Shown here: positions 50,368 through 58,414 of the stretch, piece after piece
Position numbering within the stretch: the first letter of the stretch is position 1
How the letters are laid out: every line of letters begins with the position of its first letter
Origin: Trichodelitschia bisporula
Lineage: Eukaryota
Assembly: GCA_010356995.1 (NCBI GenBank)
Contig: ML996687.1
Span: 435,803-499,802 of the forward strand
Direction: 5' to 3'
DNA: 64,000 nt
Notes under the pieces: model-generated
What the model saw: the letters and a program-made list of their open reading frames with translations, nothing else
Database searches by the model: none
What the model was told of the DNA's origin: nothing
Program-made: the position numbers and the translations under genes

Positions 50368-51849
50368 TCTATTCTGAGAACTGGGTCCGCCGATTCGGGA
50401 AATGGAGCAAATGAAAACAATCGAGCGGCTCTCGATTCTTGAGATCAGGAAAACGGACAACGATCGAGAAAAGAGAGGCTATCAGGTCGCCAGCGGCGTC
50501 TAAAATATCCAAGAACGACCCATGAAGTAAGCCATTGCAAGCCTCAGCTTGGGACCAGAATGTGGCATCGAAGGTGACGTTCGTTTTGGAAGCTTCGTGA
50601 TACATGTCGATCTGCCTATTGGTGGCGGCCTTGAGTGGCAGCCCCGGTTCCAGCCGCATCAGCGGCTTGTGATGCACGCCAGCACATAACCTCAAATCGA
50701 TGAGCCTTGCCCATCACTGTATCTTAGCCGTGCAGTTCACTTCCCTTCAAATGCGAGGACAACTGCCAACTCACACCTGTGGCTATTCATATCAACGTAC
50801 TTGAGGTATGCCGGCGACGGAAAACGCCGAGCGTCATACTTTTCTTGAGACCATTAGCCTGTACCGTACAGCCGGGAACTCCTCCGATGGTCGTCGTGCT
50901 TGCTAGCGCGCGTGCATGAAGTCTGAGGCCATAGTCGGAAGGCGGGTAGACCTCCGATGCGGCCGTTCGGCGGTACTCAACCTCAATTCGGAAGCGATCA
51001 CCGCATTCCGGCACATTTCCCCCGTACGGCGTGCAGCCGACGAACTGGAGATCTGCACGTTGCCAAAGAAGGCTCAGGTTGTTAGCTCACACTTTCGCGC
51101 GGTGTTCTTAGGCCACAGATGACAGAATGGACTTTGAGTCTCCTGCGCCGGGCCATTCTCCGATAGCCTGATCGCTTCCTGAGCATGCAGCATTTCACCG
51201 TTCATGACAAAGTCACTTTGGAGATGTCTTAAGGTGACGGAGTTCACAGTCCAAGGGAAATAATGGAGACCCGCGAGTTTGGGTCCGCCTAGGCAAGGCT
51301 GAAATACGACCTGTCGGATTCTTGGTCAGTGGCGCGCGGCTTGCGGCTTGCGGCAATCCGCAAAAGAAAAGGCCCGAGCCACACCCGCGATAGCGACACG
51401 CTATTGCCCAGTTTGATCTTCGCATTCCTGATTTTCCGAACCGGATTCCGGCTTACCAGCCATTACGCAACGTATGATGACCGCTAATCCCGGTTCCTCG
51501 ATCTTGCCCATCACATTTTCCCCTTGTCCTCAAACCCCAGGCCAAGTGCGCTGACGTAGTTCGCGCGACTTGGGGTCGTGAGGCGACCACTCGCCAATGT
51601 TCCTCATGCTACGCTTTGTACATCGTTGTAAGCACGCGGATCAATGGTGAGGAGCCAAGGCTCAACGGATGCGTTGGCCTCGATGGTCCTGTTCCCGGAG
51701 AATTGGGAAGCTGCCGAGATGACGCGGAGCACAGGGCGTTGGTGGCATGTGTGGGGGATCGCCTGCTTCATGAAGATCGTAGAGGATAGAGCACTGGAGG
51801 CTCAGAAGCGTCATGGATTCTCTTCGACTCTCTTTATTCCTAAGCAACG

Positions 51850-52356
51850 TCACGGTGGTGAAGCAGAGCTGGAGCTCTCCGGTTTCCGAACATCGTCGCG
51901 AGCAAGGGGTACCGTCGAGCTATGTGTCCAAATGCTATCCGCGAGGCCCTTGTACCAGTTTCTCACCTAAAGAAGCTCAGAGTGCGAATGGTAGGGGAAG
52001 GATGTCACCTACGGATTTGAATGGCACATGGTCTTTATCTCTCTGGCCCCAATCCATCCAGAGAACACCGTATGCGACGACAGCTTAATCCACATTAGCC
52101 ACCAAACTACGCCGTTGCATCTTCACTCACAGATGCAAGCTCCCCATTGTATTAGCTTTGTTGCCTTCGTCCAGCGTGGGCGAGCCCAAGCAAGCTTTGC
52201 TCTCCTTCTGTACCGGCGCTCAAGTCTAAGTTGTTGCTTGGGCGACATTTTCGTGAAGTCTGGCGGCCATTGTTTCTTTGCTTTGTAGGGATTGCGTTCG
52301 AAATCGAAGGGGATTTGAGGAGGCGCAACGGCCCAGCGGGCTATGGAAGGCAACAT
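51850..52356 (-). CDS. Small conserved-looking fungal protein, probable single-pass mitochondrial membrane protein (~137 aa; start uncertain)
   Basis: Exons 52356-52131, 52083-52013, 51966-51850 give NPYKAKKQWPPDF...LERRYRRRAKLAWARPRW...QWGACISVVAYGVLWMDW. Confidence 0.75.
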
Positions 52357-52683
52357 GTGCGTGTGTGTCAAGAGGCTTCGCGGTGGGGCAGCTTTGACAT
52401 TGCGATGGTTGAACGATGTCGGACAAGTTTGTCGTTGATGCCTTAGTTCCGCATTTACACAGCCTTAGAATCAAGGTGTATCGGAGCGGCGCGCACCTTC
52501 TCCGAAACGTCAACCTCAAACCACTGGGCAAGCCATCCGTCACTTTTGGCAGTGACTCAGGAATAAGCAAATATTGTCTACCATACGCCCCGCGCCTCGG
52601 AAAGACGAGCGCATTCTCTGTTCAAAAGTCCAAAAAAACTGTAGAGAAAGCGCTTCTGCGCTGTCTTTCCAAATACCGCGAAA

Positions 52684-55600
52684 ATGTCTGCTTCAAAGTC
52701 GGCTGCCGAGCCCGTGGATCCGACTTCCAACACTCAAGGCACGCTCAAGATCGAAAATGTGCGAATGCTCAAACATGTGATTCGGGCATAGGCTAAAGTC
52801 TTAAAATAGACCGAGAAGCGCGATACTTTGAAGGAGATCGAAAAGAGATATCAGAAGCAATGGCAAGACTCCAAGATCTTCGAGGCGGATGCTCCGAGTA
52901 TCGCCGAGTACCCGCCCGAGAAGATCTCCCCGGAGGACCTGCGGGCTAAAGAGCCAAAATTCTTTGGTGTGTGATTCTTTTGCTAAGGGTGTATGACTGA
53001 ACTAACACATTCAGGAACCATGGCATACCCGTAAGATCGCGGCTCTGTGCTGCTTGTTTCTGTCCTAATCAGCCTAGCTATGTGAACGGAACTCCTCACC
53101 TGGGTCATGGATTCACAGTTACCAAAATTGAGTACGCCAGCCGCGTTGCTCGCCATCAGGGAAAGCGCGTCCTGTACCCCCAAGGCTATCACTGCACCGG
53201 CATGCCCATCAAGGCGTGCGCTGACAAGCTTATCCGTGAAGTTGAACTCTTCGGCAAGAACTTTGAAAACTACAAGGAAGAAGATGTTGAAGAAGCTCCG
53301 ATCCCTGCTCCGACTCAAGCCGAGACTAAGACCGATATGTCGAAGTTCACGAACTTGAAGAAAGGTGTGTTCGCCTGGCCCGACCCTGAGTAACTCTAAA
53401 CTTTGCCACAGGCAAGGCTGCAATGAAGACGGTGAAGACGAAGTACCAGTTCCAAGTCATGCTGGCCCTCGGGATCCCAGTCACGGAGATTCACAAGTTT
53501 GCCGATCCCAACTACTGGTGTGAATTCTTCCCGTCGCGCTGGCAAGGCCACTTGATCGGCTTCGGTTCATCCGTGGACTGGAGGAGGAGCTTCGTCACCA
53601 CCGACCTGAACCCGTACTATGATTCCTTCGTCCGCTGGCAAATGCGGAGACTGAAAGAGCTCGGGAAGATCGACTTCGGGAAGCGGTACACTGTGTACTC
53701 TCCCAGGGATGGCCAGCCATGCTTGGACCACGACCGTGCTTCGGGCGAGGGAGTTCTCGTCCAAGAGTACACCGGTATCAAGTGCAAGGTTGAAAAGTGG
53801 TCGGAAGAGGCGGAGAAACAGCTGGCGGGCAAGCTTACGGAGGGCGCAAGTGTCTACATGGTCCCGGCCACCCTTCGCCCTGAGACGATGCTTGGCCAAA
53901 CTAACCTGTTCGTTTCGCCCAAGATCACATACGGCGTCTATCAAGTGTCGGACAAGGAATACTACTTTGTCACCGAGCGTGCGGCTCGGAACATGGCGTT
54001 CCAAGGGATATTCCCATCGTGGGGTTCCTTCCCGAAAGTGGCGGATATCAAGGGGTCTGACGCAATCGGAACCCTTGTCCAAGCCCCTCTCAGCCGGCAA
54101 GGAAGCGTCTACGTGGTTCCCATGGACACCATAAAGGAGACGAAGGGCACGGGTGTTGTTACCTCGGTTCCGTCGGACAGCCCCGATGACTACATCATGA
54201 CCGTGGACCTGGCAAAGAAGGCCGAGTTCTACAAGATCAAGCCCGAGTGGGTGTCTTTGGACATTCTCCCCATCATCGAGACCCCCAGCTATGGCAATCT
54301 CACTGCCCCCGCCTTGGTTAAGAAGTTGAAGATCAACTCGCCCAAGGATGCGAAGCAGCTTGCCGAAGCTAAGGAGCTTGCCTACAAGGAGGGATTCTAC
54401 CAAGGCAAGATGATCTTTGGCGAGTTTGAGGGCCGGACCGTTCAGGACGCCAAGGGTCTGATCAGGCAGCGTCTGATTGACTCTGGTGACGCTCTCGTCT
54501 ACTGCGAGCCGGACGGCTTGGTCATGTCTCGTTCTGGCGATGAATGCGTCGCTGCGCATATGGACCAGTGGTTCCTGACCTACGGAAATGCCGATGAGGA
54601 ATGGCGTGGCGATGTTCTGGGCCATGTGCGGAACGAGGATGGCCAAAATTTCAATTCTTTCACGCCGGAAACCAAGCATGCCCTCGAGCAGACTCTCGGG
54701 TGGATGAATCAGTGGGCCGTGACTCGCCAGTTTGGCCTAGGAACCCGGCTGCCGTGGGATCCTTCTCAGCTTGTGGAGAGCTTGTCGGACTCAACAATCT
54801 ACATGGCCTACTACACGATCGCTCATTATCTTCACTCCGACATTTACGGCCGAAAGCCTGGAATTGGCAACATCAAGCCGGAGCAAATGAAGGATGAAGT
54901 GTGGGAGTACATCTTCGCTCTGAGAGACTCGGTTGATTCCGACATACCCAAGGAGACGCTGGCGGCCATGAAACGAGAGTTTACGTACTGGTATCCGCTC
55001 GACGTCCGTGTCAGCGGAAAGGACTTGATCAACAACCATTTGATCTTCTTCCTCTATATCCACCAGGCCATCTGGGGCAAGAAGGCGCCGCAGTATCTGC
55101 CCAAGGGCATTCGCTTGAACGGACATGCCATGTTGAATGGCGAGAAAATGAGCAAGAGCACTGGCAACTTCCTCACTCTTGATGATGCGGTCGCCAAGTT
55201 CGGAGCTGATGCTACTCGTATCGCACTCGCCGATTCAGGTGATGGTGTCGAAGATGCCAACTTCGAGGAGGCTGTCGCCAACTCGACAATCTTGAAGCTT
55301 TTCGAGTTGAAGAAGTGGATCGAAGAGGAGATCCTCGAACCCCGCCTGCTCAAAGAGGGTGAGACGTACGCTGGCGTTCGTGACGCCGAAAAAATCAAGA
55401 CCTCGGACATCATCCAGCGCACCGGACCGAAGAACTTTTGGGATCAGCTCTTCGAGAATGAGCTGAACACTCTCGTCAAGGAGACGGTGCAGCACTACTC
55501 GGCGTAAGTTCCCGGTGCCGTTCGGTACACACGCTGACGATTTAGAACTCTCTACAAGGCGGCCCTGAAGTCTGGCTTCTATGACTTCACCAGTGCTCGC

Positions 55601-56353
55601 GACAGCTACCGTATCTCGACGACCTCTGCTTCTGTTGGCATGCACCATGACTGCGTTAAGCGTTATGCCGAGCTTCAGGCACTGATGCTTGCTGTTGTCG
55701 CTCCTCATTGGTCCGATTACATCTGGCAGGAGGTGCTCAAGAAGCCCTCTACCATCCAGACGGCAGTCTTCCCTTCGGTTCCCGATTCTGTGCCGTCTCT
55801 AACCGCCGCATCCGAGTATATCCGTAGCACGCACGGATCCATTGGAACGGCAGAAGGCGTGCAGCAAAAGAAGTTGGCGAAGGGAAAGACCACCTCATAC
55901 GACCCTAAGAGCGACAAGAAGCTCACCATCTTCGTGGCCAAGTCATGGCCCGCATGGCAGCAGAAGTACCTTAACGTGGTGCGCGAGCTGTTCGACGGGC
56001 TGACGCTGGACATAAAGAAGGTGCAGCCTAAGATTGAGAAGCCCGATATGAAGAAGGCTATGCCATTTGTGCAGGGTCTGAAGCGGCGTCTCGAAAGTGG
56101 TGAGAAGAAGGAGGCAGTCTTTGAGCGCGAGCTCGGCTTTGATGAGGTCCTTGTCCTCCTTGAGATGATCCCAGGGCTGCTGGCTATCGTGCCGAAGCTC
56201 AAGGTGGTTGAAGTCGTCATTGTCGATGATGGAGCTAAGGAAGGCGTCAAGATTGAAGCGGATGGGAAGGCAGGCGAGAAGGTGACTTCGTTGCCGCCCG
56301 CGGCTGCTGGTGCCGAACCTGGCGTGCCTACCTTCGAGTTTTCGAACATATAG
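52684..56353 (+). CDS. Cytosolic (archaeal/eukaryote-type) leucyl-tRNA synthetase, divergent sequence
   Basis: HIGH-like HLGH, KMSKS, CP1 editing motifs TLRPET and [39 protein letters not shown]. Introns 52759-52809, 52967-53014, 53031-53077, 53365-53411, 55504-55545. Confidence 0.95.
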
Positions 56354-56466
56354 GTCTTTAGTGAGTCCCACCACGCGTATGGCCATACGACGTTAGTCGG
56401 ATAGATATCTAGACGCCAAAAAGTGCTCCTGTTGCCAGAGCTTGTTACTGCGTTATCCGCGTGGCC

Positions 56467-58076
56467 CTAATATTCCCGGCCCGCCTTCTCGGCTCGCAGC
56501 CGATCATACCGCAGAACCGCGCCCAACAATACTTGTGCCCCCAGAGCGCAATCCTCGGGCGTACTATACTCCTCCGGGTTGTGCGATACCCCATTCTTGC
56601 ATGGGATGAAAATCATGCTCGTCGGGCAGACCTTGCTCGTGTACACGCTATCATGGCCCGCGCCGCTAACCATCTCGGCAGTCAATTCCTTCGCCTGTGC
56701 ACCGAAGACCCCCTCCGCCGACTCAGTCACGCACTTGATGCAATCGGGGTGGAAGTCGATCTCCGACGAGACGCTATCCGTGCGCCACTCCACCTGGCAC
56801 GCCTTCCCCGGCGTGGCCCCATCATTAAGACCCCCAACATCCTCCCCCGCCGCAATCACCGCGAAATCTCTGCGGAGCGCCTCCTCAGCCTTGTCCAAAA
56901 TCCCATCATTCCTCGCCCGGATATCCAGACTGAACCGCACGTGCCCGGGAATAGTATTGGTGGACCCAGGCTCAAGCGTCAGAATCCCCGTCGACGCAAC
57001 GCAGCCCAACTTCGTCGCAATGCGGTGACTGTGCAGAATCATCTTCGCGGCGGTGAGGAGCGCATCCGCACGCGCGGACAGTGGCGTGGTTCCAGTGTGT
57101 GCATCCCGCCCGCGTACGTCTAGCGTGAACCAGCGGTAGGCTTGGACGGCGGTTACGATGCCGATTTTGCGGTTCCAAGACTCCAGGATCGGGCCCTGCT
57201 CGATGTGCAGCTCGAAGTGCGCGGCCATGGGGATTGCAGTGTGGGATACCTCGGTGGGGCCATTGTATCCGATGCGGGCGAGCGCGGCGGATAGAGTTTC
57301 GGTGCGCGGGGGCGTAACCTCTACCAAGTCGTGGGCGGTGGCGAGCGGGATTTGGCCCGCCCACACGCCGGAGGAGACCATGGAGATGGGGAAGCGGGCA
57401 CCTTCTTCGCTGGGGGGTGTTAGGGGGAAGGTGCAAGGAGGGAGGGGTAGGGATTACTTGGTCCAGTTTACAACACCGATGGGGAACTCGGTTTCGATAT
57501 GGTTTTCGTTGAGAACGTGGAGCATTTCAACGGCGGCATGTACACCCAGGATGCCGTCGTACCGGCCGCCCGATGGCTGCGTGTCCAGGTGCGAGCCGGC
57601 GAAGGTGGGCGGCCCGGAGCGCTTGCCGGGGCGTACGGCGAAGATGTTCCCCATCGCGTCGATGGTCACTGTGCAACCGGCCGCTTTGGTGGTTTCGACG
57701 AACCAGTCTCGGGCTTGCTTGTCGGTGTCCGAGAGGGCGAGGCGGCGCATGCCGGTGTCGGTGGTGTTCCTGGAGGATTAAACCTTTGCTCGGGAGGAGG
57801 AGCGTTGACATACTCTCCCCATCGCTTGCCTGTTCCCCATTGGCACGTGTAGTGCAAATCGGTTAAGAGCCGATCACGGCTAACTTTGAGGCTGTTGAGG
57901 TCTTGAGATGTCATCTCTACTGTATCGAAGTTCAGTCGAATGTTGATGGAAAATGGCGGAGCTGGAATTGGTCTGCTTAATATATATTTGCCCCATCCCC
58001 ACGTTGACGGCCGGCTTCGCTGTGAGATCAGCGACGAGAACGGTAAACCCGGCCTTGCAGCTCTGAAGAAAGCCAT
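56467..58076 (-). CDS. M20 family hydantoinase/carbamoylase-type amidohydrolase (beta-ureidopropionase / N-carbamoyl-amino acid hydrolase-like)
   Basis: GSHLDTQPSGGRYDG, NWTN|EEGARFP, HFELHIEQGP, AHTGTTP, SGAGHDS, GVSHNPEE. Introns 57770-57813 and 57410-57457. Arg/Ser-rich N-terminus resembles a mitochondrial presequence. Confidence 0.92.
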
Positions 58077-58414
58077 AATTGGTGGCGATAACAACACTTG
58101 GACGGGATAGCTCTACTACTTAAGTGCCGATAGCGATGCCGTGACAAATAACATCGCATTGGAATGGCATCAAAGACCGATAGGGAGCAGGACGAATTCC
58201 CGTCCAGATCTCACTTATCGCCGCAAAGGCTGAACTACATTACCCGATTGGTTCTTCCCCGCACTCCATGCTGTAGAGATGATGTCGGAGGACGTCGGAG
58301 AAAAGACGGCACCGAGACTGCATGCCAAGATTTCGAGCCGCGAACTTTTTGGACGCGGAGGTTTCTGTACCATCGGTGGAGACAACTACGCCCAACGATA
58401 TCACAACCGCAATT

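What the first reader, a model, noticed from the sequence alone, without database searches (positions are those of the whole stretch)
52684..56353. Divergent cytosolic-type LeuRS with substitutions in normally conserved motifs: candidate second or resistance-type synthetase
Seen in the spliced translation: [75 protein letters not shown], and an extra ~20-aa stretch ([22 protein letters not shown]) after the KMSKS region. From memory, housekeeping fungal Cdc60-type enzymes read roughly PYMNGxLHAGH, FPxGFHCTG, TLRPETMYGQTCC, WACARxYGLG and DLIPNHLTF. The changes therefore cluster around the leucine/adenylate pocket and the CP1 editing site. One affects the Cys position I recall being mutated in benzoxaborole (AN2690)-resistant yeast. 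Catalytic signatures (HLGH, KMSKS, editing Asp in SDSPDD) are intact, so this is not a pseudogene. Inference: a paralog adapted to resist an inhibitor or leucine analogue, or to work under a special condition, analogous to self-resistance synthetases such as AgnB2 (agrocin 84) and MupM (mupirocin).
Basis: partly seen in the sequence, partly recalled or inferred. Interest (0 to 1): 0.72.

Follow-up and report, generated by a model that had tools for sequence, protein, structure and literature searches.

The report
Native leucyl-tRNA synthetase of divergent lineage
This is most likely the fungus's normal, expressed gene for the enzyme that loads leucine onto tRNA; most of its odd-looking motifs are shared with its relatives, though the same enzyme type also occurs as an extra copy in unrelated fungi.

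Summary
The gene is real: 6 exons, 1144 aa, 52684-56353 (+). It is identical to a public record named leucyl-tRNA synthetase-like protein of Trichodelitschia bisporula.

It is a full cytosolic-type LeuRS with intact catalytic and editing signatures. Transcript contigs confirm all five introns.

Most "unusual" motifs are shared by a well-supported clade I call type A, which includes its relatives Tothia, Venturia and Microthyrium. The "extra 20 aa" is in all 41 fungal sequences aligned.

The gene sits head-to-head with the same small gene that flanks canonical LeuRS in 30 of 39 other Dothideomycete contigs. It also shares V-ATPase B and other neighbours with them. No biosynthetic cluster was found in the window.

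I therefore read it as the native housekeeping LeuRS at the ancestral locus, not a resistance paralog.

Limits: no whole genome was held, so a second copy could not be excluded.

Type A coexists with canonical LeuRS in Amniculicola and Pseudovirgaria and occurs in Sordariomycetes and a Leotiomycete. All 16 type-A sequences compared replace a Cys otherwise near-invariant beside the editing motif.

The parts
52539..52683 (+). 5' untranslated leader (start of the transcript contig)
   Evidence: Record 2 of run X1 begins at 52539 and runs into exon 1. A contig end is not a mapped transcription start.
52684..52758 (+). Exon 1 (ATG, aa 1-25)
   Evidence: Gene model. The joint 52758->52810 with GT..AG ends is seen in both runs.
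52810..52966 (+). Exon 2
53015..53030 (+). Exon 3, a 16-nt micro-exon encoding part of GTMAYP
   Evidence: Read from the sequence. Transcript contigs join 52967->53078 with 15 letters between that match the micro-exon (tables 5 and 5c).
53078..53364 (+). Exon 4: HIGH-type signature HLGH (aa 90-93 = 53097-53108) and [10 protein letters not shown] (53172-53201)
   Evidence: Pfam tRNA-synt_1 matches this exon.
53412..55503 (+). Exon 5: rest of the catalytic core and the CP1 editing domain (aa 298-546 = 53768-54514). Holds the T-rich motif [14 protein letters not shown] (53870-53911), SDSPDD (54173-54190), [10 protein letters not shown] (54713-54742), [10 protein letters not shown] (55022-55051) and KMSKS (55145-55159).
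   Evidence: Residues 298-546 align to the Candida albicans editing-domain structures 2wfe/2wfg at E = 3e-73.
55546..56353 (+). Exon 6 with stop codon: anticodon-binding domain (about 55580-55846) and the RagD-binding-type C-terminal domain (about 55934-56098)
   Evidence: Pfam Anticodon_1 scores 28.9 bits (cut-off 25.1) and RBD_LARS1 30.8 bits (cut-off 27). The joint 55503->55546 is seen.
53891..53893 (+). Codon for L339: gene-specific replacement of a Tyr inside the editing T-rich motif
   Evidence: Other residues at this site: A2 relatives Y 3/3; other type A Y 11/12; Dothideomycete canonical Y 30/31; type C Y 11/11; other Pezizomycotina Y 18/18; outgroups Y 5/5. The human enzyme has Phe here.
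53903..53908 (+). Codons for N343-L344: the clade-wide type-A replacement of the canonical Cys-Cys
   Evidence: Position 344 is L, M, I or V in 16/16 type A. It is Cys in 29/31 Dothideomycete canonical, 11/11 type C, 18/18 other Pezizomycotina and 5/5 outgroups. Position 343 is N in 16/16 type A and in 4/5 outgroups, and Cys in 56 of 60 other Pezizomycotina.
51500..52464 (-). Divergently transcribed small conserved gene (first coding exon about 52131-52358). Not part of LeuRS; it marks the ancestral locus.
   Evidence: Minus-strand introns 51964-52011 and 52083-52131 (CT..AC) are seen in transcript contigs. No Pfam family matches. A homolog lies in the same divergent position upstream of LeuRS in 34 of 43 Dothideomycete-type metagenome loci.

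Best explanation
The gene encodes the native, primary cytosolic leucyl-tRNA synthetase of a dothideomycete fungus. It is 100% identical to a record named for Trichodelitschia bisporula.

From the established chemistry of class Ia LeuRS (inferred, not tested here), it activates leucine with ATP at the HLGH/KMSKS Rossmann-fold site and transfers it to tRNA-Leu. It clears mischarged tRNA in the CP1 editing domain.

It belongs to a fast-evolved LeuRS lineage, here called type A. In this fungus and its relatives Venturia, Tothia and Microthyrium, type A occupies the ancestral LeuRS locus.

Shown: gene structure, expression and splicing, domain content, clade membership, shared residues, conserved locus, and absence of cluster genes nearby.

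Inferred: that it is the only cytosolic LeuRS of the genome, and that type A arose in place within Dothideomycetes.
For: 1) Identity and completeness. The spliced model equals P0001. TIGR00395 leuS_arch scores 901 bits against a cut-off of 648.5. Residues 24-1099 align to solved human LARS1 at E = 1e-266, and 298-546 to the C. albicans editing domain. HLGH, KMSKS, TLRPET and SDSPDD are present.

2) Expression. Transcript contigs of two runs (one sample, one study) bridge all five introns with GT..AG ends.

3) Relatives. The best named hits are Tothia 77%, Lineolata 76%, Venturia 74% and Microthyrium 74%. The window groups with Tothia, Venturia and Microthyrium with support 81-94.

4) Residues shared. 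For example, N343 is in 16/16 type A, Q618 in 16/16, V615 in 15/16, and P89 in 12 of the 14 rows that have a residue there.

5) Ancestral locus. A divergent small-gene homolog lies within 1.2 kb upstream of LeuRS in 4/4 type-A loci, 16/16 Pleosporales-like, 10/12 Capnodiales-like and 4/11 other canonical loci. It is absent from 0/8 yeast-like and 0/11 remaining loci. V-ATPase B lies about 5 kb upstream of canonical LeuRS in 11 loci, and LIM-binding, aldo-keto reductase and alcohol dehydrogenase genes also recur. All of these are in this window as well.

6) No cluster. Pfam scans of 170 of 183 ORFs of at least 110 aa found no PKS, NRPS, terpene synthase or P450.

7) No canonical copy seen. A profile of six canonical sequences listed 120 proteins. 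None came from Trichodelitschia, Tothia, Venturia, Microthyrium or Lineolata, while Amniculicola and Pseudovirgaria appeared with a second gene.

8) Divergence is modest. The window is 61-64% identical to canonical Dothideomycete LeuRS. Canonical enzymes of different orders are 64-72% identical to one another. Only 11 strictly fixed differences fall in 481 conserved columns.
Against: - No whole genome was available, so 'only copy' rests on lists cut at 120 rows. Those lists certainly miss some species.
- Extra LeuRS copies do occur in this class: Amniculicola and Pseudovirgaria have A plus canonical, and Massarina eburnea has canonical plus type C.
- The origin of type A inside Dothideomycetes is favoured but not significant. 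Holding all other Pezizomycotina together costs 43.6 lnL (p-AU 0.062) or 28.7 lnL (p-AU 0.226).
- Consensus site patterns are split. Five sites join type A with Dothideomycete canonical enzymes. Six sites, including L91 and N343, join it with non-Pezizomycotina outgroups.
- Immediate synteny rests mainly on one small neighbour that could travel with LeuRS in a duplication. The wider neighbours are conserved only loosely in distance and order.
- Several metagenome loci are near-duplicates, so the counts overstate independent cases.
- Trees are quick searches with SH-aLRT support only.
- The gene does carry private changes at otherwise conserved sites (Y339L and six others). Their effect is unknown.
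Confidence: 0.75

Rival explanations
1. The genome holds a canonical LeuRS elsewhere. This gene is a second copy specialised for resistance to an inhibitor or leucine analogue, like self-resistance synthetases.
For: - Type A is a distinct long-stem clade (100% support, stem 0.22-0.30).
- It does serve as a second copy beside a canonical one in Amniculicola lignicola (P0025 + P0164) and Pseudovirgaria hyperparasitica (P0027 + P0176), on different large contigs.
- All 16 type-A sequences compared replace the Cys at position 344 next to the editing T-rich motif, which is otherwise near-invariant.
- A fungal precedent for a duplicated aaRS as self-resistance exists: Lys-tRNA synthetase and cladosporin (Table 1 passage of PMC10320164).
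Against: - The gene is at the ancestral LeuRS locus.
- No cluster genes lie in the 64 kb.
- No second T. bisporula LeuRS appears in any of three lists of 120.
- None of the four closest type-A species shows a canonical copy.
- The flagged residues are mostly shared with relatives.
- The gene is expressed and spliced, as are its housekeeping neighbours.
Confidence: 0.1
2. Same function (sole housekeeping LeuRS) but a different history. Type A is an old paralog that arose before the Pezizomycotina classes split. This lineage kept A and lost the canonical copy.
For: - AU tests do not reject type A lying outside all other Pezizomycotina sequences (p 0.062; p 0.226).
- Six consensus sites, including L91 of HLGH and N343, share the outgroup state against all other Pezizomycotina.
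Against: - The best trees place type A inside the Dothideomycete clade (support 100), at a cost of 29-44 lnL for the alternative.
- Under vertical descent the Dothideomycete type-A sequences should form one clade. This is rejected (133 lnL, p 3e-43; the group was named after seeing the tree). Transfers are therefore needed in any case.
- An old paralog would not be expected head-to-head with the same small gene as the canonical copy.
- In the two species with both types, the copies lie on different contigs.
- Eighteen derived states are shared by type A and all Pezizomycotina, and five with Dothideomycetes only.
Confidence: 0.13

Closest known systems
Cytosolic LeuRS of eukaryotes (S. cerevisiae Cdc60, human LARS1; NCBIfam TIGR00395 leuS_arch)
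   Same: Same family and architecture: class Ia catalytic core with HIGH and KMSKS signatures, inserted CP1 editing domain, anticodon-binding domain and the C-terminal RagD-binding-type domain. The alignment to solved human LARS1 runs nearly end to end.
   Different: It differs from canonical Pezizomycotina enzymes at a small set of otherwise conserved sites. Examples are C344 to L, C615 to V, S618 to Q and T723 to I, plus the private Y339L. Compared with human it carries the ~22-aa fungal stretch after KMSKS.
Second-copy, inhibitor-insensitive aminoacyl-tRNA synthetases of producers (fungal Lys-tRNA synthetase copy with cladosporin; bacterial MupM and AgnB2, recalled)
   Same: A sequence-divergent synthetase clade that in some genomes sits beside a canonical copy: Amniculicola and Pseudovirgaria.
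   Different: In this window it is at the canonical locus. No biosynthetic cluster is nearby and no second copy was seen. No inhibitor is known. The MupA resistance model scores 35.8 bits against a cut-off of 1900. The cladosporin case comes from a table passage of PMC10320164.
Benzoxaborole-resistant Cdc60 editing-site mutants of yeast
   Same: The changes lie in or next to the same T-rich editing motif. R316T, V400F/D and M493R were selected with tavaborole (passage of PMC8837787). The window differs at the positions equivalent to yeast 321, 325 and 326.
   Different: These are natural, clade-wide or lineage-specific states, not selected mutants. R334, the equivalent of R316, is unchanged. 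The claim that C326 is itself a resistance site is recalled only; I found no paper for it.

Membership tests
Cytosolic (archaeal/eukaryal-type) class Ia leucyl-tRNA synthetase | Scores above the curated cut-off of the equivalog model TIGR00395 (leuS_arch) | tested here: met
   901.2 bits against a cut-off of 648.5, residues 33-1080. The bacterial-type model leuS_bact scores only 46 bits.
Cytosolic (archaeal/eukaryal-type) class Ia leucyl-tRNA synthetase | HIGH and KMSKS class I signatures | tested here: met
   HLGH at aa 90-93 and KMSKS at aa 757-761.
Cytosolic (archaeal/eukaryal-type) class Ia leucyl-tRNA synthetase | CP1 editing domain with the threonine-rich motif and the conserved Asp-containing SDSPDD segment | tested here: met
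   TLRPET at aa 332-337 and SDSPDD at aa 433-438. Residues 298-546 align to the C. albicans CP1 structures at E = 3e-73.
Cytosolic (archaeal/eukaryal-type) class Ia leucyl-tRNA synthetase | Anticodon-binding domain and eukaryotic C-terminal domain | tested here: met
   Pfam Anticodon_1 (28.9 bits, cut-off 25.1) and RBD_LARS1 (30.8 bits, cut-off 27) on exon 6.
Cytosolic (archaeal/eukaryal-type) class Ia leucyl-tRNA synthetase | Leucylation of tRNA-Leu and hydrolysis of mischarged tRNA | not testable with these tools
   Enzyme assay needed.
Self-resistance (second-copy) aminoacyl-tRNA synthetase | A sensitive housekeeping copy of the same synthetase elsewhere in the genome | tested here: inconclusive
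   No genome is held. T. bisporula appears once only in the three lists of 120 best hits, and those lists are incomplete.
Self-resistance (second-copy) aminoacyl-tRNA synthetase | Location inside or beside a biosynthetic gene cluster | tested here: not met
   170 of 183 ORFs of at least 110 aa were scanned with Pfam. No PKS, NRPS, terpene synthase or P450 was found. The neighbours are dynactin, Tsr1, V-ATPase B, Utp7-type and an M20 peptidase.
Self-resistance (second-copy) aminoacyl-tRNA synthetase | A locus distinct from that of the housekeeping ortholog | tested here: not met
   It has the same divergent small-gene neighbour as canonical LeuRS in 30 of 39 canonical Dothideomycete-type loci, plus shared wider neighbours.
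Self-resistance (second-copy) aminoacyl-tRNA synthetase | Lower sensitivity to a defined inhibitor | not testable with these tools
   No inhibitor is known. Assays are needed.
Type A LeuRS clade (defined here) | Falls in the 100%-supported clade and carries N343, a hydrophobic residue at 344, V615 and Q618 | tested here: met
   Trees; residue counts.

The most novel reading that the evidence does not exclude
Type A may be a LeuRS variant with altered sensitivity at the editing site, for instance to a natural LeuRS-directed metabolite or to benzoxaborole-like adduct formers.

It would be native to the Venturiales/Phaeotrichales/Microthyriales lineage, this gene included. Unrelated fungi would have picked it up repeatedly as a second copy: Pleosporales, Pseudovirgaria, a Leotiomycete, and Sordariales and Xylariales.

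A second such accessory clade, type C, would point to recurrent trade in LeuRS genes among Pezizomycotina.

Shown:
- Both types are present in two species.
- Sordariomycete type A cannot be joined with canonical Sordariomycete LeuRS (690 lnL, p 5e-50).
- The Cys at position 344 is replaced in 16/16 type A.

Not shown: transfer as opposed to old paralogy, any inhibitor, or any change in sensitivity.
Probability: 0.15. Interest if true: 0.65.

Novelty: new member of a known kind. Interest (0 to 1): 0.35.

Why it matters
For this window, it removes a false lead. The gene is most likely an ordinary essential synthetase, and most of its strange motifs are normal for its lineage.

The wider by-product may matter more. 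Cytosolic LeuRS of filamentous ascomycetes is not a simple single-copy family. At least two divergent clades, type A and type C, turn up as extra copies in distant classes. Type A carries a fixed change beside the editing motif, the motif in which tavaborole-selected Cdc60 mutations include R316T.

This bears on three things:
- the use of LeuRS as a single-copy marker;
- resistance-guided genome mining, which treats duplicated core genes as signposts (PMC10320164, passages read);
- predicting natural variation in sensitivity to LeuRS-directed antifungals.

My full-text searches listed no paper whose title or abstract describes such LeuRS clades in fungi.

Tried and rejected
- Whole-genome search for a second LeuRS: no genome is held for this window.
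- Earlier-findings look-ups by place, sequence and words: nothing relevant.
- Supplements of the 101-Dothideomycetes paper (PMC7082219): searched for Pfam or tRNA-synthetase counts per genome. They hold only species lists and classification.
- RNA runs: no listed holder is on record as RNA. The two runs laid are contigs labelled 'RNA? (a guess)'. I use them only for what contigs bridge (the intron joints). Depth was not used to rank expression.
- Third protein search, with a 504-aa Lasiosphaeria ovina LeuRS-like protein (P0282): I hoped it was that species' canonical copy and would bring in canonical Sordariales LeuRS. It proved to be a divergent fragment of type C, with best hits only 50-59% identical. 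Coexistence of type A with a canonical copy in Sordariomycetes therefore remains untested. The search did supply canonical sequences of other classes for the tree.
- Pfam on the small upstream gene: no family.
- Literature on C326 as a tavaborole site: no relevant paper.
- AU test that the 13 non-A Dothideomycete rows form a clade without A: not finished in time.
- 'Clustering of substitutions at the active sites': not significant.
- One look-up was asked too early, and one Pfam call failed on a frame with stop codons.
Full report
**What is there**

Stop-to-stop frames and the raw sequence give a six-exon gene on the + strand:
- exon 1: 52684-52758
- exon 2: 52810-52966
- exon 3: 53015-53030, a 16-nt micro-exon
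- exon 4: 53078-53364
- exon 5: 53412-55503
- exon 6: 55546-56353

The introns are 42-51 nt with GT..AG ends. The translation is 1144 aa. It is identical to database protein P0001, which NCBI names 'leucyl-tRNA synthetase-like protein [Trichodelitschia bisporula]'.

Contigs of two coded runs (one sample, one study) skip exactly these five introns. They carry the micro-exon letters between 52967 and 53078, so the gene is transcribed and spliced as modelled.

**What kind of protein**

- Pfam finds class I synthetase, anticodon-binding and RagD-binding-type domains.
- The NCBIfam equivalog for archaeal/eukaryotic LeuRS scores 901 bits against a cut-off of 648.5.
- Residues 24-1099 align to solved human LARS1 (E = 1e-266), and 298-546 to the Candida albicans editing domain.
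- HLGH, KMSKS, TLRPET and SDSPDD are intact.

It is a complete cytosolic-type LeuRS.

**Are the motifs unusual?**

I aligned 41 named full-length hits and found two sequence types.

Type A has [10 protein letters not shown], FPQLWQxHL, GQ[TS]N[LMIV]F, WxVTRQ and INNHL[IV]FF. It holds 17 of the 41 rows:
- the window, Tothia, Venturia, Microthyrium, Lineolata, Amniculicola and Pseudovirgaria;
- the Leotiomycete Chlorociboria;
- nine Sordariomycete rows from eight species.

The ~22-aa stretch after KMSKS is in all 41 rows and is missing only from human.

A wider count covers 16 type A, 31 canonical Dothideomycete, 11 type C, 18 other Pezizomycotina and 5 outgroups.

| Position | Type A | All other groups |
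|---|---|---|
| 344 | L/M/I/V in 16/16 | Cys in 63/65 |
| 615 | Val in 15/16 | Cys in 60/65 |
| 618 | Gln in 16/16 | Ser, Thr or Asn in 65/65 |
| 343 | Asn in 16/16 | Cys in 56/60 other Pezizomycotina; Asn in 4/5 outgroups |

With strict thresholds only 11 fixed A-versus-canonical differences fall in 481 conserved columns. All 11 lie in aa 1-800, but without significant enrichment (p = 0.13; editing domain against the rest, p = 0.16).

The changes private to this gene at sites at least 93% conserved in the other 49 type-A and canonical sequences are F102Y, K277R, P321T, Y339L, L562M, Y619F and R699K. Y339L lies inside the editing T-rich motif. Human has Phe there.

Overall the window is 61-64% identical to canonical Dothideomycete LeuRS. 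That is only a little below the 64-72% seen between canonical enzymes of different orders.

**Phylogeny**

Type A is one clade with 100% SH-aLRT support and a long stem (0.22-0.30) in four trees of 41-74 rows.

The trees were rooted with a yeast, two zoopagomycetes, an ant and Chromera, identified through. With canonical LeuRS of Sordariomycetes, Leotiomycetes, Lecanoromycetes and others added, type A falls inside the Dothideomycete clade (support 100). It lies far from the canonical Sordariomycete-Leotiomycete clade.

Inside type A the window groups with Tothia, Venturia and Microthyrium (support 81-94). A subclade with 100% support joins Lineolata, Amniculicola, Pseudovirgaria, Chlorociboria and all Sordariomycetes.

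| AU test | lnL cost | p-AU |
|---|---|---|
| Sordariomycete type A joined with canonical Sordariomycete LeuRS | 690 | 5e-50 |
| The seven Dothideomycete type-A rows as one clade (group named after seeing the tree) | 133 | 3e-43 |
| Type A joined with Pleosporomycetidae canonical rows | 5.7 | 0.33 |
| Type A outside all other Pezizomycotina | 43.6 | 0.062 |
| Type A outside all other Pezizomycotina (second data set) | 28.7 | 0.226 |

The first two are rejected and the last three are not. Consensus site patterns are likewise split: five sites against six. The clade is therefore solid, but its point of origin is favoured, not proven.

**Second copies elsewhere**

A profile of six canonical sequences listed 120 proteins. 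Amniculicola lignicola and Pseudovirgaria hyperparasitica each have a canonical gene in addition to their type A gene, on different large contigs.

Trichodelitschia, Tothia, Venturia, Microthyrium and Lineolata did not appear. The list is cut at 120 rows and misses other species too, so this is suggestive only.

**The locus**

A scan of metagenome contigs gave 69 LeuRS loci. I sorted them by identity to reference proteins.

The small ORF that lies head-to-head with the window gene (52126-52464, minus strand, 220 bp from the ATG) has a homolog in the same divergent position within 1.2 kb. Only loci with at least 700 bp upstream were counted, and several are near-duplicates.

| Locus group | With the divergent small gene |
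|---|---|
| Type A | 4 of 4 |
| Pleosporales-like canonical | 16 of 16 |
| Capnodiales-like canonical | 10 of 12 |
| Other canonical | 4 of 11 |
| Yeast-like | 0 of 8 |
| Remaining | 0 of 11 |

Wider neighbours recur as well. V-ATPase subunit B lies about 5 kb upstream of canonical LeuRS in 11 loci. A LIM-binding-domain gene is present in two loci. Aldo-keto reductase and alcohol dehydrogenase genes are present in four. All of these lie in this window too.

The window gene therefore occupies the place where Dothideomycetes keep their canonical LeuRS.

**Surroundings**

Pfam scans covered 170 of 183 ORFs of at least 110 aa. The 13 left out overlap the LeuRS gene itself.

They found dynactin, Tsr1, a kinase, V-ATPase B, an Fe-S assembly protein, an old-yellow-enzyme reductase, ARMH3, an M20 peptidase, a Utp7-type protein, reductases and a K+ transporter. 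They found no polyketide or peptide synthase, terpene synthase or P450.

**Reading**

The simplest account is that this is the native housekeeping LeuRS. It has been inherited in place in a lineage whose enzyme evolved faster. The same enzyme type has also entered, or been kept in, other fungi as an extra copy.

What remains open is whether a second gene hides elsewhere in the genome. It is also open whether the clade-wide change next to the editing motif alters sensitivity to editing-site inhibitors.

The link between that Cys and benzoxaborole resistance is recalled, not verified. A passage of PMC8837787 confirms only that tavaborole selects editing-domain mutations such as R316T in Cdc60. 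My search for C326 found nothing relevant.

**Literature**

Full-text searches listed no paper whose title or abstract describes such LeuRS clades in fungi. For those three searches I saw only the listings.

Of FunARTS (PMC10320164) I read passages. They include Table 1, which lists Lys-tRNA synthetase with cladosporin as a duplicated self-resistance target.

Of PMC7082219 I read passages on classification and ecology and searched its two supplements.

Noticed in passing
Proteins P0180, P0169, P0186, P0372, P0368, P0373, P0374 (Pleosporales); P0365, P0366, P0367, P0377, P0194 (Xylariales); P0282 (Lasiosphaeria): A third LeuRS clade, 'type C' (13 rows, support 99), also sits inside the Dothideomycete clade and mixes Pleosporales with Xylariales. 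Massarina eburnea has both a canonical long form (P0172) and a type C form (P0372). Lasiosphaeria ovina has type A (P0037) plus a 504-aa type C fragment (P0282).
   Followed up: partly
window 51500-52464 (-) and loci L001-L066: A small protein with no Pfam family is transcribed divergently from LeuRS. The pair is conserved across type-A and canonical Dothideomycete loci, which suggests an old shared bidirectional promoter.
   Followed up: partly
window 53015-53030: A 16-nt micro-exon splits the codons just before the HIGH region. Transcript contigs carry it between two 47-48-nt introns.
   Followed up: yes
window 56353-58250: One transcript contig runs through LeuRS (+) and the convergent M20 peptidase gene (-; introns 57409-57458 and 57768-57813). 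The two genes' 3' ends are therefore close enough, or overlap, to be assembled together.
   Followed up: no
Proteins P0032 and P0056 (Rhypophila sp. PSN 637): This species has two type-A copies on different contigs. The shorter one (1015 aa) lacks 11 residues right after TLRPET in the alignment. That could be a decaying copy or an annotation error.
   Followed up: no
Proteins P0376, P0380, P0384, P0423: Four clear LeuRS proteins, of Sarea resinae, Sarcosagium campestre, Glutinoglossum americanum and Chaenotheca gracillima, are named '2-isopropylmalate synthase' by their source. This is probably a propagated mis-annotation.
   Followed up: no
window 343/91 equivalents (53903-53905; 53100-53102): At two sites, N343 and L91 of HLGH, type A shares the state of animals and zoopagomycetes, not that of other Pezizomycotina. 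This is either reversal during fast evolution or a hint of an older origin.
   Followed up: partly
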